From NCBI GenBank assembly GCA_000002445.1, contig CM000207.1, positions 384,001 through 448,000 on the forward strand: 64,000 nt of DNA. The letters are read 5' to 3'. The stretch comes from Trypanosoma brucei (Eukaryota). The notes beneath the pieces were generated by a model. That model was not told where the DNA came from and searched no databases. It saw only the letters and a list, made by a program, of their open reading frames with translations. Of the stretch, positions 3,027-27,965 are shown one piece after another. Positions within the stretch are counted from its first letter, which is position 1, and each line of letters opens with the position of its first letter. The position numbers and the translations under genes were made by a program.

Positions 3027-4393
3027 TCCAAAGGGGATCGGGCCCAACTATCTTACCTTTAGCTTTGCTATCCTGGGTTCCTAACGATTCACTTCCTTCC
3101 CGACGAACTCGCCAACGTGAATGCGGCTTTTAAAACAACAAATTCTGGCACACGTGGAGCCCACTGAATAACAAAAAAAAACGCTGTGTTTGCGCACCGC
3201 ATGGACAAGGGAAAGGAAAGGGGATAAAAGCGTATGGAAATGTAAATGATTTGAATAAGCAGCAGCATGCAAGGAAACATGTTGAAAGGACTGTGCAGTG
3301 GACCGCAGGGTGGGGAAATGTGTGGTGCGGGCACCAAAACAAAATATTGATATCGGACGAGCAAACATCCTCACTCTGAAGTTGGTACATCTAAAAACTC
3401 GCCTCACATACACAAGAAAACATAAAAAAGGGGGGAAATTATAAACGGAGAAATAATAAGGGGAATAAAATACAGTCTTCTATTTCATTCCCGGAACATC
3501 TAGTTCTCACTTACAAACTCCCACACACCTCTCGCACGCAGTTTTTCACTCAGCCACGCACAAAATCATATAATTACATACATTCACGGACCAGTCTTTC
3601 CTCATACCAAAGACAAAGTGAGGACGGGCACAAGTGCATACAGGTTGCACTAATTTCCCCTCTATTTCCTTCTCACTGCATGTCAAAACTTCCCCACCAC
3701 AAATGTGACAGGCAGAAATATGGACTTGTAATCGGGAGTGCGTGTGCGCACAGATACACACACGCATGAACTCGTGCCTCCAAATCCCCCCCCCTCTTTT
3801 TTTCTCCAGCGAAGTACTCATATTTGACGAAACAAAAAAAGGGATAATTACCCGCCCCCGCAGAAAGGGAGGGGGAAAACATTATATACATACATGACAA
3901 AAGGCACACAAACTAGTGGAGCTGGAGGTAGTTTGCTTGATCAAAGGTGGAACACAAGGATGAACAAATGAGCTCTAGCGAAAAATTCACATACAAGCAC
4001 AAAAAGAGTCCATGCGCGAGCTCAACACCTTGATGAACAAGAGGACACTAAATCATACATTAACAAGTAGAAAAGAGAATGCGCTCGTACAGAGTCAAAG
4101 AAAAATTAAAACTGTGATGGTCCATAATATTTCTCAAGCTGCTCGTCTACCATCTTCCCATACCCTCAGTTTCTTCTTCACAGAGCTTGCCACTGTCTAA
4201 AGATGTTTGAAATTGCATTACATTCATGTGACAACAAAGCGGAGGGGAGAAACGAGAACGAACGAACATGAGCAACGAAAAAAAAAAAGCACGAGGTGGA
4301 AAAACATGTAGCACCGCTCACACCATCAATTTTACAGATCACAAGTTTACTTCAGCTGCTACACGGTACGAGAACGCCCAAATCAATCCATGA

Positions 4394-7300
4394 TCATCTC
4401 CTGCTCAAACCAACTCTAGCCGTTTTTTGTGCCCTCCCTGCAGCAGCTCTTCCTGACAAGGGCGCATTTATTGGCAATGAGGGCACTTTTACTCCACCAG
4501 GGGCGGGACTGCTGCCAGAGGACGAAGCTGCATGACGCATAGCGTCCCTCATATCGCCTTTCCCTCGTTTGCCTTTGGACGGCGGTTGTGGGATCATTAC
4601 GTGGTGAGCGCTAGAAATCTCAGGTAGCGTAATAACCTTTGCCGTTGGTGAGTGTTCGCCGGCGGCGAACTCCTGCGAGGGATCCACAATTTGGGGGAGT
4701 GTGATAGCAACATCCTTCTCACTTCTCGTGGTGGCATTGACGATGGGATTGTTGTAGCTGATACCGTCTTTGCATTCGGTAACCACCTGGATGGTGTAGC
4801 TCGTTGACGGTTCAAGCCCTTCAAGTGTAAACGTCGAGTCAGAGACTGTGCTTGCAAGAATGGGTGTGCAGTTACGCACCCCAATGTAAACACGATAGTT
4901 AATAACCCGATTGCCAGACCGGTTGCTACTGGTCTCTGATCGCGATGGTGTCCACATCAGCGTGACGCTGTTGTCCGTGGTCCCCACCACCGTGAGATCG
5001 GTAACTGGCTCTGGCGCAGTACCACTTGTCACTCCAACGGGTTCACAATACTCGCTGAAAGGACTACCCTCATCAACAAGCGAACACTTCACCCGACAAC
5101 GCACCTTCGCGGCGGGTCCCGTAAATCGCACACGGCAGTTAGTTTCTTCAACAATATCGATAACGCGCCATTCCACCGATCCCTTTGGTTTCCCACGGGA
5201 GTCCGTTGGAGAATGTGACTGCTCAACAACATACCTGTACGCATGATAACAGTCTGGAGCCTCCCACTGTAGCAAACCTGTTTGAGCGTTCTGCCGCCGT
5301 AGAGTTACAGATTGAGGTGGGAATGGTGCCGTTGTCAAGTTGACCTCAACCCAAGCCCCCCAAGAGTTATGCTCATCCATCGCTCGGACTTTGACAGTGT
5401 AGGAGGTGCAGCCGGTGAGGCCATCAATCGTGATGTTCTTCATTGGACCCTCCTCTCCTTCCACATCAAACTCAAGCTGTCGGAAATAAGGCTTTGCCTG
5501 TGAGGCACACAGAACAATGCGGCGCCAATCTGGTAGAAAGTCGTCCCCGCCTTCCTCCGTGGGACCGGCCCCGACGGTACAAGCAGCGCCAACGTCAACG
5601 GCATTTGCACCATCTACTTCCCCTTCCACTGCCGCCGCAGCGCCACTGGCCGCAGGCAACTGCGTATCAGCGGGCTCAACCTCAAGAGGGGCTGCAGCAC
5701 GTGGCAGCGCTTCCGCAGCCTCCCCAGCTGAAACAGTATAAACTGTAGCAGCAGCGTCATTGTTCACGGCAGTAGCGTTAACCTCATCCCCATCGTCATC
5801 CTTATCTTTAGAAGGAATTTCGTCTGTCTTGCGTACTTCAACCTGATATTTCTTTACAATTTGAACAACTGCCTTCCGCTCCATGCTTCCCTCCTCACCA
5901 ACCTCTCCATCCACAATCCTGGCACCCCCGAGCAGTGGATCCCCATGCGCCGGTGGCGATGCTATTCCAGTAGGACTGCCACTGCTTTGTGCGTCAGGAG
6001 GTGAAACAAGCCTAGGGAGCAGGCTTCGTTCCGAAACGGGTGACGGAGACTGCTTTGCTGCCGCTCCTTTGCCCGACTTGCCCCGCTTTGACCCTCCACT
6101 CCCCTTGCTCCCCTTGGGACTTCGAGTACCTTTCCTGCCCCTCGAACCGGTCCTACCCTTTCCGGTGGAGGTTCTACCAGCTGCAGAGCCAGTCGCGTCC
6201 GGTGAAGCTTCGGGGGGTGGGGGTGGCTCCATTCGGTTGAGGGTGAACTCTGCGGAGTCGCATGTAACACCGTTGAGGGCAACACAAATGGGACACAGTG
6301 TCTTGAAACCAACCGTGGGGGTCCATTGGCCCCAACTTAATTCATCATACCGAGGTTGAAGTGCCATAAGATAATCCAAACCAGGAGAAAGGCCCTCCAG
6401 TAAATAGGTCGGAAGTAGAAACTCATCATCCGTCACGCCACAGTCACTTGGATTAATTACATGTTCCACAGTTTCATTACCACCCTTTAAGACAAGCTGG
6501 TATTCGCAGGGATCCAGCCGAGGTTGGGAGTTGCATTTTTCTTCGGAGCGATCACCTTCGCCACGGTCCCACTTCATACGCACATAGATTTCTCCTACAT
6601 TCACCACATCTAATCGCAACACACGCTGCGTGCGGAATAACCCTTCCTTGCTCCACAGACCCCAGCGCGAGTCCGTATTACATGAGCGTACAACGACAAC
6701 GTAGGCCGCATCAGCCTCCAGGGAGCAGATACGGTAGCGGTTCACATCCTTCGGGAACTGCTTATCAACGATAGCGAGGGCTGGAGAGTGTTGCGAAGCG
6801 AACACACACAAATGGTATGCAATTACCTCTGGTGTCCCAAGAACAACGGGAACTGCAGCAACGGCATTGTTTGTAGTACTAGGAAGGCTCTCTGGTTCGT
6901 CAGCAGAAGCCGGGGTCTCGCCGCAACACCCCACAATATCCGCGTATTCTTGCACAGTTTGTTCGTCACGGAACCACTCCACCGTGGCAAACTGTTCACC
7001 AGGGGAGGAGACAATAAGCTGCATCGGCTTTAGAGTCGCAAAGAACGTTCGATCACTCCAGGGGCTCCACGACTCCCGTCGAGAATCCAAGGAACGCACG
7101 GACACCGAGTAGACAGTGGCGGCTTCAAGCAACTTAGCCCGGTAGCTGTTTCGCGCGCCCTTGAACTGCTTGCTAATGTGGTAACTGTGCTCAAGACCGA
7201 TAACGTCCACCTGAAACGTTGAAAGGAAATCATCATTGCCGCAGAGCGCCTCCGATCCGTCTGGAAGTAGCAGAGATCGACGGGGTCTTTGCCAGGAAAA

Positions 7301-10300
7301 CTCGGCGTAATTTTCACCAATAGAACTCATTTCGACGGCAAACTTTGGTAAGGTCATAACATGGACGATTCGGCTCCACCGCCCCCATACATTGTCCACG
7401 CAGCAGCGCACATGAATTCGATATAGCGAATCGTGACGCAGATTGCGTGCAACATAAGTGGTTTCGCTTCCTGAGAGTGGTTTGTCAATTAGCAAAGACC
7501 CTTCATTTGCAGCAGCATTGGGGCCCACCTCATAAACACGAAGCTGGTAGCTATCCACGGGCTTGGGGGGAAACGGATTTCGCACTGGTAGTGGTTGGGC
7601 CCGCGGGTCACGCTCCCAATGGACAGCAAAGAAGTCCTCAGCGCCGTCATCCATGAAACACACCATGTCACGCAGAGTTACGTCATATAGACCATCACTC
7701 CACGCACCTGGCTCCGCTCTACTTTGGTTGAGAGCCTCCACTATGCCTTCATCCTCAGCCTGTGGGAGTTCGGGATGTATGGTATCAACAACAAACTCTT
7801 CGTGCGGCTTATACCAACGTCGCACACTCACACGGTATCGGTGATGAGATAGCAACTCCTTTACTGTGCTGTTACGAACATTTGATGGAATTATCATCGT
7901 GCGGCGTAACCGGGGGGGAAGCTCCTCTGCATCCTCCTCGCCATATGACACATCAGTGAAGTCGTGAACAGCTAGCTCATAGCAAATCAACTCTTCTACA
8001 TCCGAAGGTTGCAGGTCGCTCGTGGCAAATGAGTTCGGAAGTCGTTGCCACGACGCCGTTAGGTAGTCTTCACCAAGGCCAATCAACTCCACACTCAACA
8101 GATTGAGTGTTCCACAGGTAACGTGGGTGCTACTGAGGCCAAACTCACCGCTTCCGTAGCACGCACGGACGGCCAAAGAGTACCGTTTGTCTGGTTTTAG
8201 CGACGACACTGTGAATGTCGTCTTCTCACCTGGCACGTTGAATGTGACACCCTCATCCTCACCTTCTTGCACGAAAGTGATGGCATAGTATGCAACACGA
8301 GTCTTTGCGCTGTTGTACATCGCGGACCTTACTTCTGGTTGGTCCAGAAGGGGGTATCTCTTTTGGCACAATCCGGGTTTCAGTTTGTCAGGTGACATGG
8401 CCCTAAAGGAGGAGCGACGCCCATCTTCTCTTTCCAGAGTTGTTTGAGACTCCGCAGCGAAACCAGAACTTTCGGAGAAATCTCCGGTCTGGCCCCCAAC
8501 ACTTCTGCTGCTTTCCCCCACGGTGATGGGTGTGTTATCGTCGCTGTCACGCCCACTGCTTCCCCCGTTGGACGTTTCCTCACCTTCGTCACTTAGCGTA
8601 CCGTTAGTATCTGTGGATGTGCGCACCATTACTTGCAGTTCATCGGGTTCCTTGCGCCTCCAATGAAGGCGCACATAGTCCTCACCAATAGCCAATACTT
8701 CCGCGCTTATAAGCTTCATGGTGTACACGCAACGTTCCTCCGACCAGAAGCCCCATTCACCAAGGTTGTTCGACGCGCATATTTTAAAAGTATACGGCCT
8801 GTTCGGGGTGAGAGAATCGAGGCGGTACTCCTGAAGATCACCAGCAAACCGCTTTTCGCACAACAACTTGCGGCTGGCTTCATCACAGCGATAGATGCGT
8901 AGAAGGTAGCCGGAGCAATCGCGACACCCGACGCAGATCGTTGGATCAAACCTCCCCTCATATTCGGTACCCTCATCACCTTTTGGTTGTTGCTCCTCAC
9001 GACCCCACTCCAACATGACAGAGTGCTCTGTGATTTGTGTGGGGTAAACCTCTAGGCGCTTAAGTGTCACAAAACGAAGCGGTTCCGACCACATACTTGA
9101 TGCTTCACATTCGTCAATGGAAAGCACCCTGACGGTATAAACTGTGTCCAGGTTCAGGCTTTTCAAACGGTAGTAGGTGTTGGTGGCTCCCGTTAGTACA
9201 ACATTTAACTGCAAGCCATCACGCCCAAGTACATCAATCATGTATGCTGATGCAACGTAACTCCCGGTGAACACTTCAGCCATATCCATTCTCGGATGCT
9301 GCCTGGGGGGAACGCGTTTCCATTCAATTTCGGCGTACTGTTCGTCGATGTGCTTCACATTGACCCGGATCTTCGACATCGTGAGGAAGTGTTGTTCAGC
9401 GCTCCACGCGCCCAACTGGCCTCCCGTGGTCACGCTCATAACTTGGACACTGTAGAAACGATCTTGCTTCAGATTTTCCACTCGGAAAGAGAATGTGTCT
9501 TTGTTGAACCGTCTAGTTAGGTGCAGCCGACCACTCCCATCACTTTCGTACTCAACCGGATGCTCCTGCGGGGGCAGAGGGCCCTGTGTCTGCTGCGTAG
9601 TGGTTAAAACTCCCACAATTTCATCTGCTAGCGTCTTTGGCGCTAGTTCTTCTTCGCTTACCGCGGGTTCCTCACAGCTCTCCCCATCAACGCCATTATC
9701 TTGTAACTCCAACACCCGCACGTAAAACATTTCATTATCCACGCCATGTTGCAGAACATTCATATCATTGTCGTAGTCTACTCTTCGATCTCGTCGCCTC
9801 CAGGTTATCTGGGCCCAATCTTCACCGAGTTTCTCCACAGTTGCAGACATACCAGGCATTGTAACGCATGTTTTTGGAGCACACCAAAGCCCCCAAGCTT
9901 CCTCAGCACCCCACTCACGCACTTCAAACGTGTACTTTGTGTCCACCTGCAGCTTGTCAACACGGAAGACACAGCACGAGCGCATGGTGCGGTACTCCTC
10001 GCAGATCTTCCCCTCATCATCTTCATTCTCACTCTCCCATGTAATACGCAGTTGACAAACACATCCTTCATGAGAAGACGCATCACTTCTCAGTGTGTTA
10101 GCTTCATCTATAGGTGGCAGACGCTTATTTGGAGCTCGGTGCCACTCGATGTCCACAAAGGTTTCAGATATGCACGTGATGGACAACTGGATGAGGCTCT
10201 GCGTCATGAACTTCAACGGCGGCGTCCATGGACCCCAACCTACACCGTAATCGCAACACAGAAGTGCCGTGTACATAGTATTCCATACCAGTTGCTTCAC

Positions 10301-13300
10301 CGTGAAGGCACAGATGATGGGTTCGTTAGTATCTCCGTTACTTTTGCCTTGAATGTAATGATCTTCAAAGGTGCCATTCTGATGAATGATACGCAACTGA
10401 TAACCCCTAATCGGTGTGTGCTCGTGCACAACTACTTCACCACGACCGCTAGCAAGCCAGTTCCTCTTCGCCTTGACGCTTTCCTTAAGGTCACGAAAGG
10501 TGGCAATCCTAGTGTATAGTTCTTGCTGCTCTTCACTCGAAAGCTCCTGTTCCTTTGCCTTAATGTCCTTGGGGCACATACTAGAAAACTCCTTGTTAAG
10601 CTCGAACAACTGCCTCTCGTCTGCTTCAATTTTCGCCGACACAGCTGGTGGTAAGCGATGCCAATAAAGACTGATAAAATGCTCACCAAACCGTTCATGC
10701 AGAAGTTCGATTGGCCTCAACGTTACGAACCGGTTGCGCTCACTCCATGGGCACCAGTCCCCCACGGCGTTCCGCGTCCGCACCTCCATCTCGAAAGGTG
10801 AATCGGGCGTGAGACCCTTCACGGTAATGGAGAGCACTTCGGGGCGTAACTGCACGTCAAAGAGGACAGAGTCTTCCCTTGGTAGACCCAAATCCATGTT
10901 TGCAACTGCTGGAGTTGACGGCTCCCCACCGTCCGAGGACGTCGCCAACTGGGCGCCACCAGGAGCCGACATGTCCACATGGGCGCACTCCATATGGCAT
11001 GCACTGGTAGCTCCTGACATCAGCTTGCGTTGCTGCCGCTTCATTTTGGTCAATAATCTCATAGATTCCGCTCGGCGCTTTCGCCCAACCATCTTTTGAG
11101 AGGGAGAATGAAGTAATAAATGATGAACTCCCTGAATGGTTGGCATAACTCCTTCACCATAAAATCGCAGGTGGTATCCTGTTACCTCTGGGTCGCCCAA
11201 AACAATGTTTTCAACACGGAGGTGATGTATTGCGTCATTGCGGACCGCTGCGTTGTGCTCGTGCCGTAACTCAAGGTGGTCTTTCAAATTATTCCGCTCC
11301 TCTGACTCCTCCAGTTCCTGTAACCGTCGTTTCATGTCGAAAAGTTCGTGTCGCTCACGCTCATCACAGCGTCGCTCCTCTGCGGTACGGCGCTCTTCAA
11401 GGAATGCTTCGTATTTTCTGACATCCTGCGGTATCCGGAACCAGCGGATAATCGCCATCGTCTCGGTGTGGTGCGATACTTCGGTAACCATGGAGGTGAG
11501 AGTTAGCACAGATTCACGGTGAGAAAGCATCGACCAGTGTCTCTTTTCACTCAATGAACGCACGCACACAGAATAAATCTGGTCGGGTTGGAGACCGGTG
11601 ATACGAACAGACATTTGGTACTTGGATAACGTAAGGCACTGTTGCACATCGCACGTAATGCCCTCAAGATAAAGCTCGTAACGCTCGATGGAGTAGTCCC
11701 CAATTTGCACTGCGTCCCAATCGTTGCCGTCATCCTCACCGTCCTCGACCTGTAATTTGCCTTCCACTCCATTGTCACTGGGAAGCACGGACGCCGGCTC
11801 AGGCTCGGCGTCGGACCCCGCATCCAGACCACTGAGGATATCAGTTTCTGTAAACATGCCGCAAAGCTGGGGCAAGTCCCCCAAGTCATCAGGTTTGTTG
11901 AGATCAGGCCGAGCACAAGCCCAATCGGGTAGCGGTCGACTCCAACTCACCAGAATAACATCTTCATACACGGAGTGTACCTTCACCTTCAGTCGACCCT
12001 GCGACACAAACTTCGTTACCTCGCTCCACGGACCCCAGTACCCCTCTGCCTTGGCACGCATGCTCACCGCGTATATGGTGTTACTCACAAGGTTTCCTAA
12101 ATGATACGAGGTTGCAGTGGGCTCAAGAGAGAGAACAGTATCCAGCGAAAGGGGGCCCTCGTACTTCTTTTTTGCCTTAGCATCCAACCGAGTGGCACGA
12201 AGCTCATACGCAGTCACTTTCACCACACCACGAATAATACCCGTTTCTGGGGTTGTGTCAAGCTTCCGGGGAACGCGTCGCCACCCCACCAAGCAGTAGT
12301 CCTCACCAATTTCGATTGGTACAACACCCATCGGATGAACCATTTCCACGACAGCCGTTTGGGAAAAAGTTCCCCATGAATCGGGCACGAACTTCCCTCT
12401 GAAATCAATCCGTTGCTCGCATACAACAACACGGTAATGCGCACCTGGGGTTAAATTACAGAGTCGCAGTGATCGCTGGGAGGTTTCGTATAGTCGGGCA
12501 CCGTTTACAAGAGGTTCATCACGCTCATCGAACGGCTCTTCCGCTGCCAGAGGTTCGATGTGCACCTGGTAATTGTGGATGTCCGCTTCCTCGGGGTAGC
12601 AACAGAAGCAGTGGCTCACTGCTCTTGTCATGGGTGGACGAGTCCATGAAACGTTTATGAAAGTTTCGGTTATGCTGTCAGTACTTAACTTTAGGAGCGG
12701 ACACGTTACCAATATCCGTGGCTTGCTCCAGTGACCCCATGTGTTGTTTTTATCCTGCGCCCGTACGGTAAGGGTGTACTCGGCATCCGCCTGAAGATTT
12801 GTAACTAGTCGACCCATTTCGGCCGCCGGAGCATAAAACTCTACAATATCATCTGCACCAGGTAGGCCACCGGAGAGGCGACGGCACTCCATCTGGACAT
12901 GCCACTGCAGGATATCAGGGCATCCACGCATCACCGTCTCATCAAAAATGTAATCATCGTCCCCGTCACCACCTTCACCACTCGCTAACTCAGAGGATGC
13001 AGTGCAACCATAAACATGTCGGGCACCACGACTAATAATCGAAACACAGCTGCTAGCCCTCCGCTTTATTTGTTCAACATCAGACCCGCCCACATCTCCT
13101 TCTGCCGCCAACGCAGCTTCAGACGCGGCGCTATAGCTTCCGGTGTCACTGCTCCCCTCACCGTCTGTGAAGCCGGAAGTGCGCCGTCCGCTGCGTCGGT
13201 CCACAAGGTCGCTGCGCCGCTCTGCCAGATCGCTGCGGCGGCCCCATTCCAACTGACAAAATGTTTCACCGACAAGCAGCACGTTTGCTTCAACTGATTC

Positions 13301-16300
13301 GAGAGTCACGAAGCGCCTAGAATCACTCCACAAACCCAGTTCATCATATGTATCTTTTGCTGACACTTCGACCGAGTATATCGTTGAAAGTTTCAGCGAC
13401 GACAGCGTACATGTTGTTTGCCTAAAATTGACATACTGTGATACCACTTCATTACCTTCCTTGTCCAGTACATGTACCTTGTACCCGCTCACGGCCCTAT
13501 CCACTGCATTCGTCTCACCTTCATTTTCCCAATTCCTATCACCTGCCCAATTTGGTCGAAACCAAGACACTGTGACGTAATCTTCACCGATGGCCGTAAT
13601 GTCCAACTGCAATTTCGGTAGCGTGCGTACGCGGGCCTCCTCGTTCCAAAATCCCCATATACCCTCGTAGCCCTTCGCACACAGCCAGACACAATACTCC
13701 GCAGATGGCTGCAGATCTTTGAGCCGGAAACTGCTGACGTACGGGCTGAGATCGTAGACGTAATGAACCGGATCACCGACTCTCTCCACCCTTAGTCTGA
13801 ATTGCTGCACAACATCCTCAGACTCAAACACCGCTTCGGTGTCACAGCGGTCAAGGCACGTGGGCAGATGGCGACGCCATTCAACAATGGCAAAATGTTC
13901 GCCAACGTTCCCGAATGTCACACGGAGCCTCGGTTTGGTGTGAAACGACCGGGTCGCCCAAATTCCCCAATCCTGCTTATCTGAGCCACGTGACCGCACA
14001 CCGAATTTATACACCGTATCTGGAAGAAGACCACGAAAAAACAGCTTGTTGTCTTGCACCTCCTTCGTGAATTTGAAATATCCGTCGCCAGCGATGCATA
14101 CCTCGTAACCTTTCGCAGTGGCATCGGTGTTGAGAGCAGTGTCAAAACTAACCAAATTGGAGGTGTCAGACATTCGCGACCACGAAACCCACACGGCATC
14201 TTCGGACACGTGGTGGATGGAGATATCCATTCCAGGAATAGTGCGCACCTTTGCTTCTGTGCTCCACACGCCCCACACTGAATTTTCTCCACAAGTTTGC
14301 ACCACGATACCGTATGTGGTCGAGGGTTGCAGTTCATTGATGTGCAGCGCAGTGAGAGAATTGCTTACTTCAATCAACTTCTGAAAACTTCCATCAATTT
14401 CACGGATTTTTACTCGAGAGGCTACAATAGTTCCCTGTTCAAGTTTCACCTCTGACGATCCACTAACGTGTGGCGGGATGTTGTGCTTGTTGCGTTTCCA
14501 TCCTACACTGACAAAATCTTCTCCAATATCAGTGAACTCTACCTCTGTGGGTGGCACCGTGGCGAAGAAAAGCGGGGGCTGCGACCACATACCCCATTCA
14601 CCGTTCGTCAATTTTGACCGGACAGAAACACAGTACACGGTGTTGGCACGAAGACTGGGGATGGTATGTTCTGTGTCTTCCGTTGTGCTACAAAATTCAG
14701 TTTGGTATATCAAACGGTGGTCGGCTGCGTTTACTGGCAAAGACGAATTATGCACACGCGGCTTAAGTTGTCCTGTGGAACTATGAGGCAACAAGTTCTC
14801 TACGGGGGATGTTACGCACAACATAAGGCAAGGACGGCACTGGCCAAATACTACTACTCTATCGTCGCTGCTTCTGTTTCCATCGTCCTCAGGAAGCCGC
14901 TTCTGTTGGTGGGGCCGGTGTACATTGATTTCACAGAACTCCTCGGATATAACTCTCGTCTGGATTTCCAAGCTCTTCATCGTAAGGCACCACAGTGGCG
15001 AGCTCCATGAGCCCCACTCCTCGTCGTTGTAATTTGCCTTTATTTCCACGCAGTAGTATGTATCCGGCTTCAGGTTGGAGATACGGTACGGTGAGTCTCC
15101 ATCGCCAAGAAAAACTTCGAACACAACACCCCCAACGTTGAACACCCGCAAATGATACGATGTTACGACACCCCTCCCGGTTGCGTAATTTTTCTGGTTC
15201 GGCGGACGACGCCGCTCCCAAGCAATTATGGCATAATCGTCTGCTACTTCTACAGCCCGAGTAAGGATGGTATCACGGGTGAGTATTTGCACGGGCGGGG
15301 TCCAAAGCCCCCAATCCCCACTTGGTCCAGCGGCTCGTATTTGAATGTTGTATGCCGTGGCGTGGTGAAGTCCGTAAATCTTAAGCTCCCGCATGTCCGC
15401 TGGTAGTGAATGGTCCTTGGAGTAGGACTGGTCAATACTCTGTATGCGCAGTTCCTGCTTTGTGACGGTCAAGTCTCCAGTGTGGACATCCTTGTTTTTC
15501 AGCGGATTGGCATCTCGGCTCCACACAATGCTTACATAATTCTCTCCGATGATGAGGTTGTTCACCGGAATTCGAAACTGTGCGTTTGAACGGAAGCGCA
15601 ACGGCTGACTCCACAAGCCCCACATCCGCGTGGACGTGCACGCACGCACGACAGCCATATATTCTCGATCAGGAAGCAGGTCTTCCACACGTAACGACGT
15701 GTGCTCACTGGACACAACCTTGTACCGGGCAACTTCAGAGTTCCCACCCATATGATAGCCACTCAGCGAGCTCGCCGACGACCCAGAGAGCTCCCGGCTG
15801 AAAACAAACACAGCATAGCTCGATACGAACATATCAGCAGCTGCCACGGCCACCGTATTGTCCCTGTCATCACCTTTTGTATTAATGCCGTCTCCACCCA
15901 CCAGAACATCGTCAACTAGCTGCCGCTCCCACATGAGCCGCACAAAGTCCTCTCCGATTTCGTCAACATGCATCATCATAGGAGCCAGTGTACGCAGCTT
16001 CACGCGACTCCAAGCACCCCACTGCTCCACCTCGTTGCATGCACGGACTGAGACGATGTAAGTTGTTGCAGGCTGTAGGTTGCTGATCTTGAAACTCGTT
16101 CCCAACATTTCCTCCCTTAGGACTTCGGTTTCCCCAGAATCAACGCAGTCGACGCAAAGCTCATACTTGAGATCGGCCCATAACTCAGAGATCCCCATAT
16201 CAGAAGATCCCATAGGTAGGGGTACGTCAGAGAGTCCACGACGCCACACAACCTGGGCGAAGTCTTCACCAATATCCCATAGTCTCACACCAAGTGGTTG

Positions 16301-17833
16301 CAGCGTTTGTGTGTGTTTGGGGTCAGTGAACTCACCCCATCCCTCATAACCAGTTAGACGATTAAATTGGTATGACCTGCATTTTAAAATATACATGGTG
16401 TTGGGCCTCAGCTTCTCTACAGTAAACATACATGTATCTCCATCTGACACGATTTCCTCATCTTTCACAACATTCAACTCGTCATGGCTCTCAACCTGCA
16501 TAATAACGATGTTGAATCGAGATGCAAAGCGGCCGTTGCACTCTCCCTCGAGTTTCATAGTTATGAAGTCCTCACCGCGCTCCAAAAAAGTTAATGAAGC
16601 CCTTGCCTCCGTGCGAAATTTCTTGGGTTCTGTCCACATACCCCACTCATTGTTCAAGAACGTCCGTATTGATACATTATACTCCGTCCCGGATGTGAGA
16701 CCCTCAATGTGTATGACTTTATCATCTGCCAACGGTCCAACATCAAGCCTTTCCTCCTGCTTGTACACAGAGTTAAGACTACTGAGACGGTACTCTACCT
16801 GAGTCTCCGTCTCTGCGTCGATCATTCTGGCCCAGGTAAAAGAAAGGAATGACTCCCCTGAGGCAACTACAGATAGCTCCGGACGACTAGCAGTTCGCAC
16901 GCAAAGCGGTTCAGAGCACCTCCCCCAATAGCCCTGCACGCTCAGGCTACGGACAGTGAAAATATAAGAACCCCCTGGTGTTAACTTATCTAGGCGGTAC
17001 GTCCGCTCTTGTTGAGGGAACTCAACAGAGCGAAAAGTCTGACAATCCGATTGAACCAGGACCTCATAGCGGTGCACGTCGTTATCTGGCACAACGTAAC
17101 CGATGGTATCGTCTGAAGTACTGGCTAGAGCCCAACTGACGGTAACAACATCCTCACCGCAGCTCAGGAGTGACATGACATTCGTCTGCCTAGTGAGGAA
17201 GCGACCAACCTCCACCCATTTCTTCATGGTGTTGATGAGCGTCTTGTACCGAATCATAACAATATAAGCCGTACCTGGCCGCAGACCTCGAACTATGTGT
17301 GTTCGCACACCTGTTTCGAAGCGGTCACAAAATTCCTGCCTCATATCAGATTCCCTGAGTACCCGTAACTCAAAGTCGTCAATATCGGCAATGGAACGGG
17401 TGGCATCAGCATCGATTTCCGCAGCGATGCCCGTTGGGGCCCTTGCAGGTCTGTCCCACAGCACACGCACGTAGTCCTCACCAACATCATTGATTTGGCC
17501 CGTAACCGCCGCCAAAGTGGCCGTCCGTGTCACCTCCGACCACACGCTCCACGACATCGTTTTCTCCGAATACACACGAACACGGGCCCTATAAAAACTT
17601 GAAGCCCGAAGCTTCACCACTTTGTGACGCTGTTTGATAGGCAAGACTATATCGTAGAGAGTTTCAACAGTGTCTTCCCCTGCTGTTTCCTCATCCACCT
17701 GAAGCTGCCACTTCGTCACGTCGGTAACGTCATTCCAGCTATGCTTAGAATCAAACTGGAACCCAAACTCCCCAAACATCTCGCCCATACGGTTCACAAC
17801 GGCATTGCACAGAATATCTGTATTAGCTTCCAT
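4394..17833 (-). CDS. giant (~4480 aa) protein built from at least 30 tandem fibronectin-type-III-like beta-sandwich repeats; no signal peptide evident
   Basis: 13.4-kb uninterrupted minus-strand ORF. A W-G-x-W-[ST]-x-P/E motif recurs about every 100-130 aa (EWGMWTEP, QWGAWSRV, MWGLWSQP, DWGLWTPP, EWGSWSSP, VWGVWSTE, DWGIWATR, TWGHWSKP, YWGPWSEV, GWGPWTPP, AWGLWCAP, EWGFWSEE, VWGRWSRI, RWGLWSKE, SWGAWVEV and others), with conserved Y/L/V positions typical of FN3 and cytokine-receptor-type modules. A central Gly/Ser/Lys/Arg-rich linker is present. The track start at 17854 is TTG, and the first ATG is at 17831-17833 (MEANTDIL...). Confidence 0.8.
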   Translation of the reverse strand: MEANTDILCNAVVNRMGEMFGEFGFQFDSKHSWNDVTDVTKWQLQVDEETAGEDTVETLYDIVLPIKQRHKVVKLRASSFYRARVRVYSEKTMSWSVWSEVTRTATLAAVTGQINDVGEDYVRVLWDRPARAPTGIAAEIDADATRSIADIDDFELRVLRESDMRQEFCDRFETGVRTHIVRGLRPGTAYIVMIRYKTLINTMKKWVEVGRFLTRQTNVMSLLSCGEDVVTVSWALASTSDDTIGYVVPDNDVHRYEVLVQSDCQTFRSVEFPQQERTYRLDKLTPGGSYIFTVRSLSVQGYWGRCSEPLCVRTASRPELSVVASGESFLSFTWARMIDAETETQVEYRLSSLNSVYKQEERLDVGPLADDKVIHIEGLTSGTEYNVSIRTFLNNEWGMWTEPKKFRTEARASLTFLERGEDFITMKLEGECNGRFASRFNIVIMQVESHDELNVVKDEEIVSDGDTCMFTVEKLRPNTMYILKCRSYQFNRLTGYEGWGEFTDPKHTQTLQPLGVRLWDIGEDFAQVVWRRGLSDVPLPMGSSDMGISELWADLKYELCVDCVDSGETEVLREEMLGTSFKISNLQPATTYIVSVRACNEVEQWGAWSRVKLRTLAPMMMHVDEIGEDFVRLMWERQLVDDVLVGGDGINTKGDDRDNTVAVAAADMFVSSYAVFVFSRELSGSSASSLSGYHMGGNSEVARYKVVSSEHTSLRVEDLLPDREYMAVVRACTSTRMWGLWSQPLRFRSNAQFRIPVNNLIIGENYVSIVWSRDANPLKNKDVHTGDLTVTKQELRIQSIDQSYSKDHSLPADMRELKIYGLHHATAYNIQIRAAGPSGDWGLWTPPVQILTRDTILTRAVEVADDYAIIAWERRRPPNQKNYATGRGVVTSYHLRVFNVGGVVFEVFLGDGDSPYRISNLKPDTYYCVEIKANYNDEEWGSWSSPLWCLTMKSLEIQTRVISEEFCEINVHRPHQQKRLPEDDGNRSSDDRVVVFGQCRPCLMLCVTSPVENLLPHSSTGQLKPRVHNSSLPVNAADHRLIYQTEFCSTTEDTEHTIPSLRANTVYCVSVRSKLTNGEWGMWSQPPLFFATVPPTEVEFTDIGEDFVSVGWKRNKHNIPPHVSGSSEVKLEQGTIVASRVKIREIDGSFQKLIEVSNSLTALHINELQPSTTYGIVVQTCGENSVWGVWSTEAKVRTIPGMDISIHHVSEDAVWVSWSRMSDTSNLVSFDTALNTDATAKGYEVCIAGDGYFKFTKEVQDNKLFFRGLLPDTVYKFGVRSRGSDKQDWGIWATRSFHTKPRLRVTFGNVGEHFAIVEWRRHLPTCLDRCDTEAVFESEDVVQQFRLRVERVGDPVHYVYDLSPYVSSFRLKDLQPSAEYCVWLCAKGYEGIWGFWNEEARVRTLPKLQLDITAIGEDYVTVSWFRPNWAGDRNWENEGETNAVDRAVSGYKVHVLDKEGNEVVSQYVNFRQTTCTLSSLKLSTIYSVEVSAKDTYDELGLWSDSRRFVTLESVEANVLLVGETFCQLEWGRRSDLAERRSDLVDRRSGRRTSGFTDGEGSSDTGSYSAASEAALAAEGDVGGSDVEQIKRRASSCVSIISRGARHVYGCTASSELASGEGGDGDDDYIFDETVMRGCPDILQWHVQMECRRLSGGLPGADDIVEFYAPAAEMGRLVTNLQADAEYTLTVRAQDKNNTWGHWSKPRILVTCPLLKLSTDSITETFINVSWTRPPMTRAVSHCFCCYPEEADIHNYQVHIEPLAAEEPFDERDEPLVNGARLYETSQRSLRLCNLTPGAHYRVVVCEQRIDFRGKFVPDSWGTFSQTAVVEMVHPMGVVPIEIGEDYCLVGWRRVPRKLDTTPETGIIRGVVKVTAYELRATRLDAKAKKKYEGPLSLDTVLSLEPTATSYHLGNLVSNTIYAVSMRAKAEGYWGPWSEVTKFVSQGRLKVKVHSVYEDVILVSWSRPLPDWACARPDLNKPDDLGDLPQLCGMFTETDILSGLDAGSDAEPEPASVLPSDNGVEGKLQVEDGEDDGNDWDAVQIGDYSIERYELYLEGITCDVQQCLTLSKYQMSVRITGLQPDQIYSVCVRSLSEKRHWSMLSHRESVLTLTSMVTEVSHHTETMAIIRWFRIPQDVRKYEAFLEERRTAEERRCDERERHELFDMKRRLQELEESEERNNLKDHLELRHEHNAAVRNDAIHHLRVENIVLGDPEVTGYHLRFYGEGVMPTIQGVHHLLLHSPSQKMVGRKRRAESMRLLTKMKRQQRKLMSGATSACHMECAHVDMSAPGGAQLATSSDGGEPSTPAVANMDLGLPREDSVLFDVQLRPEVLSITVKGLTPDSPFEMEVRTRNAVGDWCPWSERNRFVTLRPIELLHERFGEHFISLYWHRLPPAVSAKIEADERQLFELNKEFSSMCPKDIKAKEQELSSEEQQELYTRIATFRDLKESVKAKRNWLASGRGEVVVHEHTPIRGYQLRIIHQNGTFEDHYIQGKSNGDTNEPIICAFTVKQLVWNTMYTALLCCDYGVGWGPWTPPLKFMTQSLIQLSITCISETFVDIEWHRAPNKRLPPIDEANTLRSDASSHEGCVCQLRITWESENEDDEGKICEEYRTMRSCCVFRVDKLQVDTKYTFEVREWGAEEAWGLWCAPKTCVTMPGMSATVEKLGEDWAQITWRRRDRRVDYDNDMNVLQHGVDNEMFYVRVLELQDNGVDGESCEEPAVSEEELAPKTLADEIVGVLTTTQQTQGPLPPQEHPVEYESDGSGRLHLTRRFNKDTFSFRVENLKQDRFYSVQVMSVTTGGQLGAWSAEQHFLTMSKIRVNVKHIDEQYAEIEWKRVPPRQHPRMDMAEVFTGSYVASAYMIDVLGRDGLQLNVVLTGATNTYYRLKSLNLDTVYTVRVLSIDECEASSMWSEPLRFVTLKRLEVYPTQITEHSVMLEWGREEQQPKGDEGTEYEGRFDPTICVGCRDCSGYLLRIYRCDEASRKLLCEKRFAGDLQEYRLDSLTPNRPYTFKICASNNLGEWGFWSEERCVYTMKLISAEVLAIGEDYVRLHWRRKEPDELQVMVRTSTDTNGTLSDEGEETSNGGSSGRDSDDNTPITVGESSRSVGGQTGDFSESSGFAAESQTTLEREDGRRSSFRAMSPDKLKPGLCQKRYPLLDQPEVRSAMYNSAKTRVAYYAITFVQEGEDEGVTFNVPGEKTTFTVSSLKPDKRYSLAVRACYGSGEFGLSSTHVTCGTLNLLSVELIGLGEDYLTASWQRLPNSFATSDLQPSDVEELICYELAVHDFTDVSYGEEDAEELPPRLRRTMIIPSNVRNSTVKELLSHHRYRVSVRRWYKPHEEFVVDTIHPELPQAEDEGIVEALNQSRAEPGAWSDGLYDVTLRDMVCFMDDGAEDFFAVHWERDPRAQPLPVRNPFPPKPVDSYQLRVYEVGPNAAANEGSLLIDKPLSGSETTYVARNLRHDSLYRIHVRCCVDNVWGRWSRIVHVMTLPKFAVEMSSIGENYAEFSWQRPRRSLLLPDGSEALCGNDDFLSTFQVDVIGLEHSYHISKQFKGARNSYRAKLLEAATVYSVSVRSLDSRRESWSPWSDRTFFATLKPMQLIVSSPGEQFATVEWFRDEQTVQEYADIVGCCGETPASADEPESLPSTTNNAVAAVPVVLGTPEVIAYHLCVFASQHSPALAIVDKQFPKDVNRYRICSLEADAAYVVVVRSCNTDSRWGLWSKEGLFRTQRVLRLDVVNVGEIYVRMKWDRGEGDRSEEKCNSQPRLDPCEYQLVLKGGNETVEHVINPSDCGVTDDEFLLPTYLLEGLSPGLDYLMALQPRYDELSWGQWTPTVGFKTLCPICVALNGVTCDSAEFTLNRMEPPPPPEASPDATGSAAGRTSTGKGRTGSRGRKGTRSPKGSKGSGGSKRGKSGKGAAAKQSPSPVSERSLLPRLVSPPDAQSSGSPTGIASPPAHGDPLLGGARIVDGEVGEEGSMERKAVVQIVKKYQVEVRKTDEIPSKDKDDDGDEVNATAVNNDAAATVYTVSAGEAAEALPRAAAPLEVEPADTQLPAASGAAAAVEGEVDGANAVDVGAACTVGAGPTEEGGDDFLPDWRRIVLCASQAKPYFRQLEFDVEGEEGPMKNITIDGLTGCTSYTVKVRAMDEHNSWGAWVEVNLTTAPFPPQSVTLRRQNAQTGLLQWEAPDCYHAYRYVVEQSHSPTDSRGKPKGSVEWRVIDIVEETNCRVRFTGPAAKVRCRVKCSLVDEGSPFSEYCEPVGVTSGTAPEPVTDLTVVGTTDNSVTLMWTPSRSETSSNRSGNRVINYRVYIGVRNCTPILASTVSDSTFTLEGLEPSTSYTIQVVTECKDGISYNNPIVNATTRSEKDVAITLPQIVDPSQEFAAGEHSPTAKVITLPEISSAHHVMIPQPPSKGKRGKGDMRDAMRHAASSSGSSPAPGGVKVPSLPINAPLSGRAAAGRAQKTARVGLSRR

Positions 17834-19011
17834 CTTACTTTTGTAATATACCAACCTGATCTTCCCTCACCTTCCCCCTTTCCTCTTCCTTATTTACAAA
17901 TAGTGATCCGTACTGTTTCCCTTCCTCTCTCCCTGATTAGTCACTATTCCTCCCCCTCAATTCCTTCCGTTCTTGAGCGGATGTCCCTTTTTCTCTAGAT
18001 GAATGTGCCGGAACAAACTTTTTGCCGGGCAGTCTCTTGTCGTGTTGCGTGCCCCCTTTCAGTTACCATGCAACGTAAGACAACAGTAGCAGGTGGGAAG
18101 TACAAATGGACAACAGAAACGAGACGGGACAACAACGAATATCCCCTCTCTACGACTCCGTCGTACACTCCGTCTTCCTTTTTTGGTTTGTTTCTCACCC
18201 TGCTGCAATAACGGAAGTAGCCACCAAAAAAAAATCGGAGCCCAAGAAATTAAAGAAAGGCAAAGATGCAAATGTGACGAAAGCGGTAGGAAATCGAAAC
18301 AGCAACTTGGGTTAGGATGAACAGAGCGAAAAGGAAAGGTGGCACATAGGTATTCACAGCCGTGGGCCTCAATTTATGAGAAGGAGGTGAAAGAACATGT
18401 TAAACAGAAAAAAGTGTAAGCACTTCAGCACGAAAAAGTGGAAACCTAAGGTGTGGTAGACAACAAAAAAACGCTAAAACAAAAAAGAATTAGGTCCACG
18501 CACACTTGCGCTTGTGTAAAACAGTCTCCGAGATAACAACTCCTAAAAAGGAACAAAAGAACGGGGCATGGAAAACAAAAAACAAGTGAAAACGGTCCTC
18601 AGTATACGTAACGGTGAGGAAGGACGTGATGTACCCGCTCCGACGGCCACGCATCCCGCACTGACAGGAGAGAGGTGGGAGTGGGGAAGAGTGCGAATCA
18701 ATCGTGACACACATCACGGAAGGGGCACCACATATGCCACAGCAACAGAAAACATATTTTGCGCCCTGAGAGACACATATCGCCTTGCGGTGGGCCCCCA
18801 GGCACCCTCAGGTGTAGACACACACGACGGAGTTTGTGAGTTTACTATAAACAAAGAAAATAAAAAAGAGAATCGGCAACCAACATTTCGCTTCCTTCCT
18901 CCGATCTAGGGTCCCCGTCAAAACCTCTAGTGGGAAAAGAAAAGTGAGGCAACGATCACGACAATGCTACAGAAGAAAGACATAAAATGGAAATGAGGCG
19001 GCGTCCCAGTC

Positions 19012-27945: not shown

Positions 27946-27965
27946 TTCAGAAAGCAAACAATGCA

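What the first reader, a model, noticed from the sequence alone, without database searches (positions are those of the whole stretch)
4394..17833. 4480-aa protein composed almost entirely of FN3-like repeats, with no signal peptide
At least 30 tandem modules with a W-G-x-W-S/T signature and flanking conserved aromatic positions resemble fibronectin-type-III and cytokine-receptor-type beta-sandwiches. The N-terminus has no secretory signal, so this looks like an intracellular titin-like or scaffold protein rather than a surface protein. Giant all-beta repeat proteins are uncommon in kinetoplastids and are candidates for cytoskeletal or flagellar rulers. Repeat-to-repeat identity is low, which points to an ancient array rather than recent amplification.
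Basis: partly seen in the sequence, partly recalled or inferred. Interest (0 to 1): 0.5.

Follow-up and report, generated by a model that had tools for sequence, protein, structure and literature searches.

The report
Giant flagellar FN3-repeat rod protein
This is the already annotated Trypanosoma brucei gene Tb927.9.1750, a 4479-residue chain of about 33 fibronectin-type-III domains; its Leishmania counterpart sits in the flagellar skeleton and is needed for normal swimming, but how it works has not been studied.

Summary
A 4479-aa ORF lies on the minus strand (4394-17833) and is built almost entirely of about 33 tandem FN3 modules. Pfam fn3 scores E=3e-113. AlphaFold and Foldseek give tandem FN3 sandwiches. 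There are no ASH/MSP hits and no signal peptide or transmembrane segment in any of 19 orthologues.

The protein is identical to T. b. brucei TREU927 XP_803466.1, which is Tb927.9.1750. Every module has its own colinear orthologue in trypanosomes, Leishmania and Bodo, and most also do in Prokinetoplastina and Diplonema. Module number is constant (30-32 detected) while protein length varies from 3958 to 5138 aa. Modules within the protein are only about 23% identical, and there are no DNA-level repeats. The array is therefore ancient and fixed.

Published screens already place the protein. The L. mexicana orthologue LmxM.26.2380 is about 31-fold enriched in detergent-insoluble flagella. Its knockout is viable but swims at about 4 µm/s against about 7. 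T. brucei RIT-seq shows strong fitness loss in bloodstream forms.

The best reading is a Euglenozoa-specific, rod-like structural protein of the flagellar cytoskeleton. The "ruler" idea is plausible but untested. The gene is already known and annotated, so interest is moderate.

The parts
4394..17833 (-). Complete coding sequence of the giant FN3 protein (4479 aa plus stop at 4394-4396). This is T. b. brucei TREU927 XP_803466.1 / Q38FX4, gene Tb927.9.1750.
   Evidence: ORF list and translation. Exact identity to P0020. Gene id from the orthologue table of Beneke 2019.
6290..17833 (-). Modules 1-30 (aa 1-3848): the WGxWS-type FN3 array. The module consensus is .iGEdfv.v.W.R, then a variable B-C region, then yeLrv....L.pdT.Y.v.vRa......WG.WSep..frTl. 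Modules are joined by 6-residue links.
   Evidence: Self-HMM boundaries, consensus, Pfam fn3, colinear orthology of each module.
13295..14530 (-). Modules 11-14 (aa 1102-1513), modelled as four consecutive seven-stranded beta sandwiches.
   Evidence: AlphaFold2 on alignment A1: pLDDT 84.6, pTM 0.66. Best Foldseek PDB matches are fibronectin FN7-B-8-9 (3t1w, 5e-20), LAR FN1-4, gp130 and thick-filament titin/MyBP-C chains.
11225..11422 (-). Alpha-helical hairpin (aa ~2138-2203, containing CDERER..LF.MKRR) inserted between strands B and C of module 19.
   Evidence: AlphaFold2 on A2: helices at residues 16-51 and 57-81 of the model, pLDDT about 80-93. The sequence is conserved in trypanosomatid orthologues.
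10877..11125 (-). Disordered, basic, low-complexity loop inside module 19 (aa ~2237-2319).
   Evidence: pLDDT below 50 for model residues 115-197. Poorly conserved in alignment A2.
10451..10648 (-). Second helical insertion (aa ~2396-2461) at the same B-C position in module 20. It follows the near-invariant start RFGEHYINLYWHR.
   Evidence: AlphaFold2 helices at model residues 274-294, 299-308 and 311-339. Invariant or near-invariant columns F260 G261 E262 H263 Y264 I265 N266 L267 W269 R271 of A2.
5324..6271 (-). Module 31 (aa 3855-4170), split by a long low-complexity insert that includes a K/R/G/S-rich patch. The insert is not conserved in sequence among orthologues.
   Evidence: Self-HMM split hits, translation, weak orthologue matches confined to the module's C-terminal part.
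4739..5311 (-). Modules 32-33 (aa 4175-4365): two canonical FN3 domains without the WGxWS motif.
   Evidence: Best-scoring Pfam fn3 stretch at 4276-4359. PDB sequence hits to fibronectin at 4266-4367. Colinear orthologues.
4397..4738 (-). C-terminal tail (aa 4366-4479): non-FN3, S/T/P/G-rich and strongly basic. It carries short conserved motifs (LPEI..., and a near-terminal (D/S)RLPxL(K/R)(K/R) in other trypanosomatids).
   Evidence: Alignment of tails. The last 90 aa have pI 10.1-12.0 in 9 of 10 orthologues, while the whole protein has pI 5.1-5.6.

Best explanation
The gene is Tb927.9.1750. It encodes a cytoplasmic, detergent-insoluble structural protein of the flagellar cytoskeleton that is confined, as far as seen, to Euglenozoa (kinetoplastids and diplonemids).

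Shown:
- The protein is a chain of about 33 FN3 beta-sandwich modules joined by short links of constant length.
- It has no secretory signal or membrane anchor.
- Each module has its own orthologue in the same position in trypanosomatids and Bodo, and mostly so out to Diplonema. Module number is constant, and all length variation sits in loops.
- The Leishmania orthologue fractionates with insoluble flagella. Its deletion leaves cells alive and motile but roughly halves swimming speed and directionality.
- RNAi in bloodstream T. brucei causes strong fitness loss.

Inferred:
- The chain forms a stiff, acidic rod of fixed length. That would be about 115 nm if each module adds ~3.5 nm, as I recall for fibronectin FN7-10.
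- The rod lies along the axoneme and/or paraflagellar rod.
- Individual modules and their conserved B-C loops, including the two helical hairpins in modules 19-20, dock onto position-specific partners.
- The basic C-terminal tail binds an acidic surface such as tubulin tails.
- The rod works as a longitudinal strut or spacer that keeps flagellar substructures in register so that the beat propagates normally.
For: Fold and architecture:
- Pfam fn3 E=3e-113. AlphaFold model pLDDT 84.6 with seven strands per module. Foldseek top hits are tandem FN3 structures.
- Module boundaries with 6-residue links. The spacing from WGxWS to the next GED is near-constant, 17-22 residues.

Cytoplasmic, not secreted:
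- No conserved hydrophobic segment in 19 orthologues.
- The Leishmania entry lists 0 TM domains and no signal peptide.

Position-specific conservation:
- Colinear best hits for nearly all modules in T. cruzi, L. mexicana and Bodo, and for most in Prokinetoplastina and Diplonema. These score 2-4 times the best paralogous module.
- 30-32 modules detected in 17 orthologues whose lengths range from 3958 to 5138 aa.
- Loops are nearly as conserved as strands (0.61 vs 0.68).

Localisation and function, from Beneke et al. 2019 (PMC6615630):
- LmxM.26.2380 (5059 aa, the same length as orthologue P0013) is paired with Tb927.9.1750.
- Spectral counts are Ci 14, Cs 0, Fi 44, Fs 1. log2(cell body/flagella) is -4.95 and log2(soluble/insoluble) is -7.43.
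- Flagellar evidence is recorded as 'proteome and tagging'. The orthologue is marked present in the Subota 2014 T. brucei and Dupe 2015 L. donovani flagellar proteomes.
- The deletion is complete. Speed is 3.98 +/- 0.08 µm/s and directionality 0.16, both p<0.0005. Unaffected mutants give about 6.9-7.8 µm/s and 0.30-0.37.

T. brucei fitness:
- Ouna et al. 2012 (PMC3332058, Table 4): RIT-seq representation of Tb927.9.1750 falls to 0.05 at day 3 and 0.02 at day 6 in bloodstream forms. Hydin gives 0.05 and 0.01.

Charge: acidic rod and basic tail.

Distribution:
- Every named hit of this module type in an exhaustive HMMER search is a kinetoplastid or diplonemid.
- The published orthogroup has no Chlamydomonas or human member.
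Against: - No sub-flagellar localisation (axoneme, PFR, base or tip) could be obtained. The tagging images are not held, and the TrypTag supplements held do not list the gene.
- The protein is not a chain in any solved trypanosome flagellar structure. The PDB sequence search found only generic fibronectin hits at 1e-5. So it is either not a regular, well-ordered axonemal component or has not been resolved.
- It is marked absent from the salt-extracted T. brucei flagellar proteome of Broadhead 2006.
- 14 of 59 spectra were in the insoluble cell-body fraction.
- mRNA is low, about 0.5 copy per cell.
- The knockout phenotype is a single screen entry. I saw no add-back or flagellum-length entry for this line.
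- Rod length, stiffness and partner docking are inferences. Model coordinates could not be measured with these tools.
Confidence: 0.6

Rival explanations
1. A molecular ruler in the strict sense. The fixed number of FN3 modules would set a flagellar periodicity, for example the register between the 96-nm axonemal repeat and the 56-nm paraflagellar-rod repeat. Changing the module number would then change that spacing.
For: - Constant module count (30-32) despite about 1200 aa of length variation.
- One-to-one module orthology, in most cases as far as diplonemids.
- Links of near-constant length.
- Insoluble flagellar fraction and a motility defect.
- The estimated ~115 nm is close to 2 x 56 nm. 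This is my arithmetic from general knowledge of FN3 size, not a measurement.
Against: - No periodic localisation data.
- No clear super-repeat inside the array, only a weak +5 register.
- Not seen in solved axoneme structures.
- The knockout still builds a beating flagellum without curling, which is mild for the loss of a ruler.
- Presence in euglenids, which also have a paraflagellar rod, could not be tested.
Confidence: 0.2
2. A locally placed scaffold or signalling platform, for example at the flagellar base, the tip or the attachment zone, rather than a strut repeated along the flagellum. Its loss would alter beat regulation indirectly.
For: - Low mRNA and modest spectral counts for a 5059-aa protein.
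- Tb927.9.1750 is listed as a candidate TbDYRK kinase substrate and is labelled by APEX fused to Alba3/4 (PMC10998879).
- It is marked absent from the Broadhead 2006 salt-extracted proteome.
Against: - Strong enrichment in isolated, detergent-insoluble flagella. Such flagella lack the base that stays with the cell body after deflagellation.
- No catalytic or adaptor domain other than FN3.
Confidence: 0.15
3. A cell-body cytoskeleton (subpellicular corset) or RNA-granule-associated protein that contaminates flagellar preparations. The motility defect would come from altered cell-body mechanics.
For: - 14 spectra in the insoluble cell-body fraction.
- APEX proximity to cytoplasmic Alba3/4 alongside the corset protein WCB.
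Against: - About 31-fold enrichment in flagella over cell bodies.
- The authors record tagging as evidence for flagellar localisation.
- Marked present in two other flagellar proteomes.
Confidence: 0.04
4. A secreted or surface adhesin, or a hydin-like ASH/MSP-domain central-pair protein misread as FN3. These are the first reader's own refutation scenarios.
For: - FN3 arrays are usually extracellular.
- The WGxWS motif resembles the WSXWS motif of cytokine receptors.
- Hydin is another giant all-beta flagellar protein.
Against: - No signal peptide or transmembrane segment in 19 orthologues.
- Detergent-insoluble.
- No ASH, MSP or PapD hit in the Pfam search (max E-value 1), while fn3 scores 370 bits.
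- Structural matches are FN3.
- Hydin is a separate gene, Tb927.6.3150 / LmxM.29.1810.
Confidence: 0.01

Closest known systems
Titin, twitchin, obscurin and myosin-binding protein C (animal sarcomere)
   Same: - Intracellular rods made of tandem ~100-aa beta-sandwich modules with short links.
- Each module is individually conserved between species.
- They bind along a filament system.
- Thick-filament chains are among the structural matches (8q6t_I, 8g4l_am, titin A84-A86 8bnq).
   Different: - No Ig (I-set) modules. I-set scores E=0.028, 14.9 bits, below its cut-off of 23.7.
- No kinase domain and no clear super-repeat.
- The organism has no sarcomere, and the location is the flagellum.
- No sequence relationship beyond the shared FN3 fold, with about 13-17% identity in structural alignments.
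Hydin, CFAP47 and CFAP65 (giant ASH/MSP-domain axonemal proteins)
   Same: - Multi-thousand-residue, all-beta repeat proteins of the flagellar cytoskeleton.
- Loss impairs motility.
- RNAi is deleterious in bloodstream T. brucei (hydin BS3/BS6 0.05/0.01 against 0.05/0.02 here).
   Different: - The domain type is FN3, not ASH/MSP.
- Hydin is conserved across ciliated eukaryotes. This protein has no Chlamydomonas or human orthologue, and its named relatives are all Euglenozoa.
- The hydin knockout is far more severe: 2.29 µm/s with curled flagella.
CCDC39/CCDC40 (the 96-nm axonemal ruler)
   Same: An elongated protein of defined length lying along the axoneme. This is the functional model that the 'ruler' idea borrows.
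   Different: That ruler is a coiled coil, whereas this protein is a beta-sandwich chain with only two short helical inserts. No evidence here for periodic placement.
Class I cytokine receptors (WSXWS motif in the membrane-proximal FN3)
   Same: - A W-x-x-W-S motif just before the last strand.
- A conserved basic residue in the F strand (v.vRa). This is the sequence arrangement that forms the Trp-Arg ladder in those receptors (consensus).
- gp130 is among the top structural matches, and Pfam Interfer-bind hits.
   Different: - Not extracellular: no signal peptide and no membrane span.
- The second position is Gly, not Ser.
- The motif recurs in about 22 tandem modules instead of one.
Cytoplasmic FN3 pairs of integrin beta4
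   Same: Intracellular FN3 modules that dock cytoskeletal linker proteins. 6gvk, 6gvl and 1qg3 appear among the structural matches to modules 19-20.
   Different: That is a two-plus-two-domain segment of a membrane receptor tail, not a free 33-module rod.

Membership tests
Fibronectin type III domain (Pfam PF00041, E-set clan) | Profile match above the curated threshold | tested here: met
   370.6 bits against a cut-off of 25, E=3.1e-113, 18 significant stretches.
Fibronectin type III domain (Pfam PF00041, E-set clan) | Seven-stranded beta sandwich of ~90-100 residues | tested here: met
   The AlphaFold2 model of modules 11-14 has seven strands per ~100 aa, with pLDDT 84.6.
Fibronectin type III domain (Pfam PF00041, E-set clan) | Structural similarity to solved FN3 domains | tested here: met
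   Foldseek: 3t1w 5.4e-20, 6tpw 1.6e-18, 1fnf 8.6e-17. Modules 19-20: 7y6e 5e-9.
Fibronectin type III domain (Pfam PF00041, E-set clan) | Conserved core residues (Trp in strand B; Tyr in strands C and F) | tested here: met
   The module consensus keeps W.R in strand B, y.L in strand C and T.Y.v.v in strand F.
ASH/MSP (hydin-like) domain arrays | Profile match to ASH, MSP or PapD-like families | tested here: not met
   No such family among the 16 families listed (max E-value 1).
Class I cytokine receptor homology module | WSXWS-type motif before strand G | tested here: inconclusive
   WGxW[ST] is present 14 times and relaxed forms about 22 times.
Class I cytokine receptor homology module | Type I membrane protein with signal peptide and extracellular FN3 pair | tested here: not met
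   No signal peptide or transmembrane segment in 19 orthologues. Found in the detergent-insoluble flagellar fraction.
Titin-like sarcomeric rulers | Mixed Ig (I-set) and FN3 modules arranged in super-repeats | tested here: not met
   I-set is below threshold, at 14.9 bits against 23.7. Only a weak +5 module register is seen.
Titin-like sarcomeric rulers | Serine/threonine kinase domain near the C-terminus | tested here: not met
   No kinase family in the Pfam scan.
Titin-like sarcomeric rulers | Length of the protein sets the length or periodicity of a filament system | not testable with these tools
   This needs module deletion or insertion followed by ultrastructure. Only the constant module number is shown here.
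Flagellar cytoskeleton proteins of trypanosomatids | Enrichment in isolated, detergent-extracted flagella | tested here: met
   Published data for the orthologue LmxM.26.2380: Fi 44 and Ci 14 spectra, Cs 0, Fs 1; log2(cell body/flagella) -4.95. Not measured for the T. brucei protein itself, though it is marked present in the Subota 2014 flagellar proteome.
Flagellar cytoskeleton proteins of trypanosomatids | Loss of function alters motility | tested here: met
   Published knockout K21: 3.98 µm/s, directionality 0.16, both p<0.0005. RIT-seq fitness loss in bloodstream T. brucei.

The most novel reading that the evidence does not exclude
Tb927.9.1750 would be a Euglenozoa-specific flagellar ruler or strut: a rod of fixed length (~115 nm, 33 FN3 modules). 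Its individually conserved modules would dock at successive sites along the axoneme/paraflagellar-rod interface and set or maintain the register between the two lattices. That would make it the first all-FN3 intracellular ruler outside animal muscle.
Probability: 0.2. Interest if true: 0.7.

Novelty: already known. Interest (0 to 1): 0.38.

Why it matters
Flagellar motility is needed for viability of bloodstream T. brucei and for Leishmania transmission. This protein has no human or Chlamydomonas orthologue in the published orthogroup table. It is therefore a lineage-specific, apparently fitness-critical flagellar component.

It also shows FN3 modules, usually extracellular, being used as an intracellular cytoskeletal rod in a protist. 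The array has been frozen since before kinetoplastids and diplonemids diverged. If it proves to be a spacer or ruler, it would give a direct handle on how trypanosomatid-specific flagellar lattices are kept in register.

As it stands it is an annotated gene with screen-level phenotypes and no mechanistic study that I could find.

Tried and rejected
1. ASH/MSP or hydin-like fold: rejected by the Pfam scan and the structure search.

2. Secreted or membrane protein: rejected by hydrophobicity scans of 19 orthologues and by the published fractionation.

3. Recent amplification: rejected. There are no DNA repeats, modules are 23% identical to each other, and each has a colinear orthologue.

4. Super-repeat search: only a weak +5 offset was found (m06-m11, m23-m28, m24-m29). 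This is not strong enough to claim.

5. Chains in solved trypanosome flagellar structures: none match. The PDB sequence search found only generic fibronectin hits at 1e-5.

6. Literature searches that found nothing relevant:
- FN3 terms combined with trypanosome, TrypTag or paraflagellar terms.
- An attempt to get the gene id from neighbouring Sec1-family genes.
- The held TrypTag supplements contain neither 'fibronectin' nor Tb927.9.1750.
- The hyperLOPIT supplements have no 'fibronectin' entry.
- Subota 2014 is not held.

7. Presence in euglenids:
- A search with alignment A1 returned nothing, although orthologues exist.
- The full Diplonema protein timed out.
- A 785-aa Diplonema fragment returned one unnamed hit.
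- The question remains open.

8. Extra domains in the shorter diplonemid paralogues: only FN3 families were found.

9. Helical inserts of modules 19-20: Foldseek matched only the FN3 parts.
Full report
**What is in the sequence.** The finding's coordinates hold a single open reading frame on the minus strand. It is open over 4394..17854, with the first ATG at 17833 and the stop at 4394-4396, giving 4479 aa. All large neighbouring ORFs out to about 45 kb are on the same strand and encode unrelated housekeeping proteins: an Mcm10-like zinc-finger protein, a 3004-aa HECT/SPRY ligase, a Sec1-family protein, a WD40 protein and a nitrilase. This is the polycistronic layout expected of a kinetoplastid, so the neighbours say nothing about function. 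[quoted passage not shown]

**Checking the observation.** Pfam fn3 scores 370.6 bits (E=3e-113) with 18 separately significant stretches. The other hits are FN3-type families (Pur_ac_phosph_N, Interfer-bind, FN3_DSCAM and others). No ASH, MSP or PapD family appears in the hit list (max E-value 1). An HMM built from the protein's own repeats converges on 38 hits. These merge into 33 modules of about 100 aa separated by 6-residue gaps. Modules 15, 18, 19, 20, 22, 25 and 31 are split or lengthened by insertions.

The strict motif WGxW[ST] occurs 14 times against 0.023 expected from composition. Relaxed forms mark about 22 modules. The last two modules are canonical FN3 without the motif. The module consensus is .iGEdfv.v.W.R, then a variable B-C region, then yeLrv...L.pdT.Y.v.vRa......WG.WSep..frTl.

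Modules are on average 22.7% identical to one another, with a range of 12.9-34.6%. At the DNA level there is nothing repeated beyond a 21-nt 2.5-copy repeat and one 31-nt pair.

There is no signal peptide or transmembrane segment. The most hydrophobic 19-residue window in the first ~58 residues scores at most 1.28 in the protein and in 18 orthologues, and the few windows above 1.6 elsewhere are not at conserved positions. The ORF cannot be extended upstream by more than seven codons. T. cruzi and T. melophagium start at the equivalent residue. Two corrections apply: the gene is on the minus strand, and the motif marks about two thirds of the modules rather than all of them.

**Structure.** AlphaFold2 on modules 11-14, using 11 orthologous rows, gives pLDDT 84.6 and pTM 0.66, with four consecutive seven-stranded sandwiches. 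The best Foldseek matches in the PDB are tandem FN3 structures. They include fibronectin FN7-B-8-9 (3t1w, 5e-20), LAR FN1-4, gp130, fibronectin FN7-10, and titin/MyBP-C chains of cardiac thick filaments.

A second model covers modules 19-20 (pLDDT 75). It shows that each of these modules carries an alpha-helical hairpin of about 65 residues between strands B and C. That is the position where other modules have their variable loop. Module 19 also has an ~80-residue disordered basic loop. Foldseek matched only the FN3 parts of this model.

**Evolution.** A word-indexed search found 19 full-length relatives of 4.3-5.3 kaa. They come from Trypanosoma, Leishmania, Leptomonas, Bodo saltans, a free-living prokinetoplastid (the EukProt 'PhM_4' entry; the identification as a prokinetoplastid is from my memory) and Diplonema papillatum. 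An exhaustive HMMER search of 1.84 billion representatives with the module 11-14 profile gave 54 hits below 1e-30. I looked up 20 of the listed hits. All 9 that carried a source name are kinetoplastids or diplonemids (Diplonema, Sulcionema, Namystynia, Apiculatamorpha), and the rest are unnamed metagenome entries. Lower-ranking hits that lack the WGxWS and GED motifs often have signal peptides and look like ordinary FN3 proteins.

Module-by-module BLAST shows that nearly every T. brucei module finds its best match at the colinear position in T. cruzi, L. mexicana and Bodo. Most do so in the prokinetoplastid and Diplonema as well. These matches typically score 2-4 times the best paralogous module.

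The number of detectable modules is 30-32 in 17 orthologues whose lengths range from 3958 to 5138 aa. All length variation therefore lies in loops and inserts. Loops are almost as conserved as strands (0.61 against 0.68 column identity).

The array was therefore assembled before kinetoplastids and diplonemids diverged and has been frozen since. Only a faint +5-module register hints at older block duplications. Whether euglenids have the protein could not be determined.

**What is already known about the gene.** The supplements of Beneke et al. [quoted passage not shown] Its length of 5059 aa matches the L. mexicana orthologue P0013. Its only listed T. brucei orthologue is Tb927.9.1750, and no Chlamydomonas or human orthologue is listed.

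In their fractionation proteome the spectral counts were insoluble cell body 14, soluble cell body 0, insoluble flagella 44 and soluble flagella 1. This gives log2(soluble/insoluble) of -7.43 and log2(cell body/flagella) of -4.95. The entry records no transmembrane domains and no signal peptide.

In their knockout library the line 'K21' has these entries:
- The deletion is complete.
- Evidence for flagellar localisation is 'proteome and tagging (this study)'. Only a C-terminal mNeonGreen tag was made, and the images are not held.
- The orthologue is marked present in the Subota 2014 T. brucei and Dupe 2015 L. donovani flagellar proteomes, and absent from Broadhead 2006 and Oberholzer 2011.
- Swimming speed is 3.98 +/- 0.08 µm/s and directionality 0.161, both p<0.0005.
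- There is no flagellar curling.

For comparison, mutants with no significant change swim at about 6.9-7.8 µm/s with directionality 0.30-0.37. The DRC2 knockout gives 3.98 µm/s and the hydin knockout 2.29 µm/s.

For T. brucei, Table 4 of Ouna et al. 2012 (PMC3332058), quoting the RIT-seq screen, lists Tb927.9.1750 among essential genes. Its mRNA is about 11 rpkm, roughly 0.5 copy per cell. Representation falls to 0.05 at day 3 and 0.02 at day 6 of RNAi in bloodstream forms, much like hydin at 0.05 and 0.01. It is established knowledge, from my own memory of work by Broadhead, Ralston and others, that motility defects are lethal to bloodstream forms. The RIT-seq result fits a flagellar role.

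A 2024 study lists the protein as a candidate TbDYRK substrate labelled by APEX-Alba3/4 (PMC10998879). No paper in the held library discusses the protein's architecture or mechanism. It is not a chain in any solved structure.

**How it most likely works.**

*Shown:* it is a cytoplasmic chain of about 33 FN3 modules with short links of constant length. The chain is acidic overall (pI about 5.2) and has a strongly basic, S/T/P/G-rich C-terminal tail (pI 10-12 in 9 of 10 orthologues). The Leishmania orthologue sits in the detergent-insoluble flagellar skeleton and is needed for normal speed and directionality of swimming, but not for building a beating flagellum.

*Inferred:* the short links and the one-to-one conservation of every module, loops included, point to a stiff rod whose successive modules each meet a different partner. 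Titin's modules do this along the thick filament. The rod would be about 115 nm long if each module adds ~3.5 nm, as I recall for fibronectin FN7-10. The basic tail is a plausible anchor on acidic tubulin tails. The two helical hairpins in the middle of the rod are plausible docking points for coiled-coil partners.

I therefore read it as a longitudinal strut or spacer along the axoneme and/or paraflagellar rod. Confidence is about 0.6 for 'structural rod of the flagellar skeleton required for normal beating'. It is about 0.2 for the stricter claim that it is a ruler that sets a periodicity.

Points that weigh against a regular, abundant axonemal component:
- It is absent from solved doublet structures.
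- It is marked absent from the salt-extracted proteome.
- Its mRNA is low.
- The knockout phenotype is mild.

The rivals are a locally placed scaffold (0.15) and a cell-body cytoskeleton protein (0.04). Surface-adhesin and hydin-like readings are excluded.

**Comparison with known families.** It is a bona fide FN3-domain protein, with all four membership features met. It works like the titin/twitchin class in being an intracellular module rod. It is not a member of that class, because it has no Ig modules, no kinase and no super-repeat.

It parallels hydin, CFAP47 and CFAP65 as a giant all-beta flagellar protein, but with a different domain type and a lineage-restricted distribution.

Its WGxWS motif, together with the F-strand Arg/Lys, mirrors the WSXWS arrangement of class I cytokine receptors. 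The protein fails the defining topological features of that family.

**Verdict.** However, the gene (Tb927.9.1750) is already annotated as an FN3 protein and already has screen-level localisation and phenotype data. The new points from this analysis are:
- the module map of 33 modules;
- the frozen one-to-one orthology extending to diplonemids;
- the constant module number;
- the helical inserts in modules 19-20;
- the acidic-rod, basic-tail layout.

Interest is moderate (0.38). It would rise considerably if the ruler or strut role were demonstrated.

Noticed in passing
window 19012-28026 (-): The next gene upstream is another giant ORF of 3004 aa. It has HECT (2e-34), SPRY and RanBP-type zinc-ribbon domains, so it is a large E3 ubiquitin ligase.
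   Followed up: no
window 46814-49640 (+): A reverse-transcriptase ORF (RVT_1, 3e-44, 779 aa at 47301-49640) lies on the plus strand inside an otherwise minus-strand gene array. A 219-aa ORF sits just upstream. It looks like a retroelement insertion, and an ingi-type element is my guess.
   Followed up: no
window 29927-31825 (-) and 51981-53909 (-): Two Sec1/Munc18-family genes lie 22 kb apart in the same transcription unit.
   Followed up: no
proteins P0034 (Diplonema DIPPA_17498), P0069 (DIPPA_01460), P0037 and P0053 (Apiculatamorpha), P0064, P0067 and P0074 (Namystynia): Diplonemids and prokinetoplastids carry further, shorter (2.2-3.8 kaa) proteins built of the same WGxWS-type FN3 module. 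In several of them modules start 'KIWEDF' instead of 'IGEDF'. Only FN3 families were found in the three scanned (P0034, P0069, P0064). Whether trypanosomatids retain any of these paralogues was not checked.
   Followed up: partly
window 4394-17833 (-), modules 6/11, 23/28 and 24/29: There is weak extra similarity between modules five positions apart (mean 26.2 bits at offset 5 against about 22-24 at most other offsets). This may be a trace of an old five-module block duplication.
   Followed up: partly
window 13189-13241: The only tandem DNA repeat in the gene is a 21-nt unit present 2.5 times. It encodes RSDL(A/V)(E/D)RR in the acidic, low-complexity insert of module 15.
   Followed up: no
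window 9746-10519 (+) and 5883-6359 (+): Antisense ORFs of 257 and 158 aa lie inside the giant gene. They are probably chance products of its composition.
   Followed up: no
protein P0019 (Diplonema papillatum DIPPA_09465), about the last 400 aa: The gene model repeats the final FN3 module and tail almost verbatim. This may be an assembly or annotation artefact, and it explains the count of 32 modules against 30-31 elsewhere.
   Followed up: no
Leishmaniinae orthologues (P0010-P0016): The N-terminus carries an extra ~45-250 residues of low-complexity sequence, and module 13 has a 20-70-aa insert that is absent from Trypanosoma. This accounts for much of their greater length.
   Followed up: no
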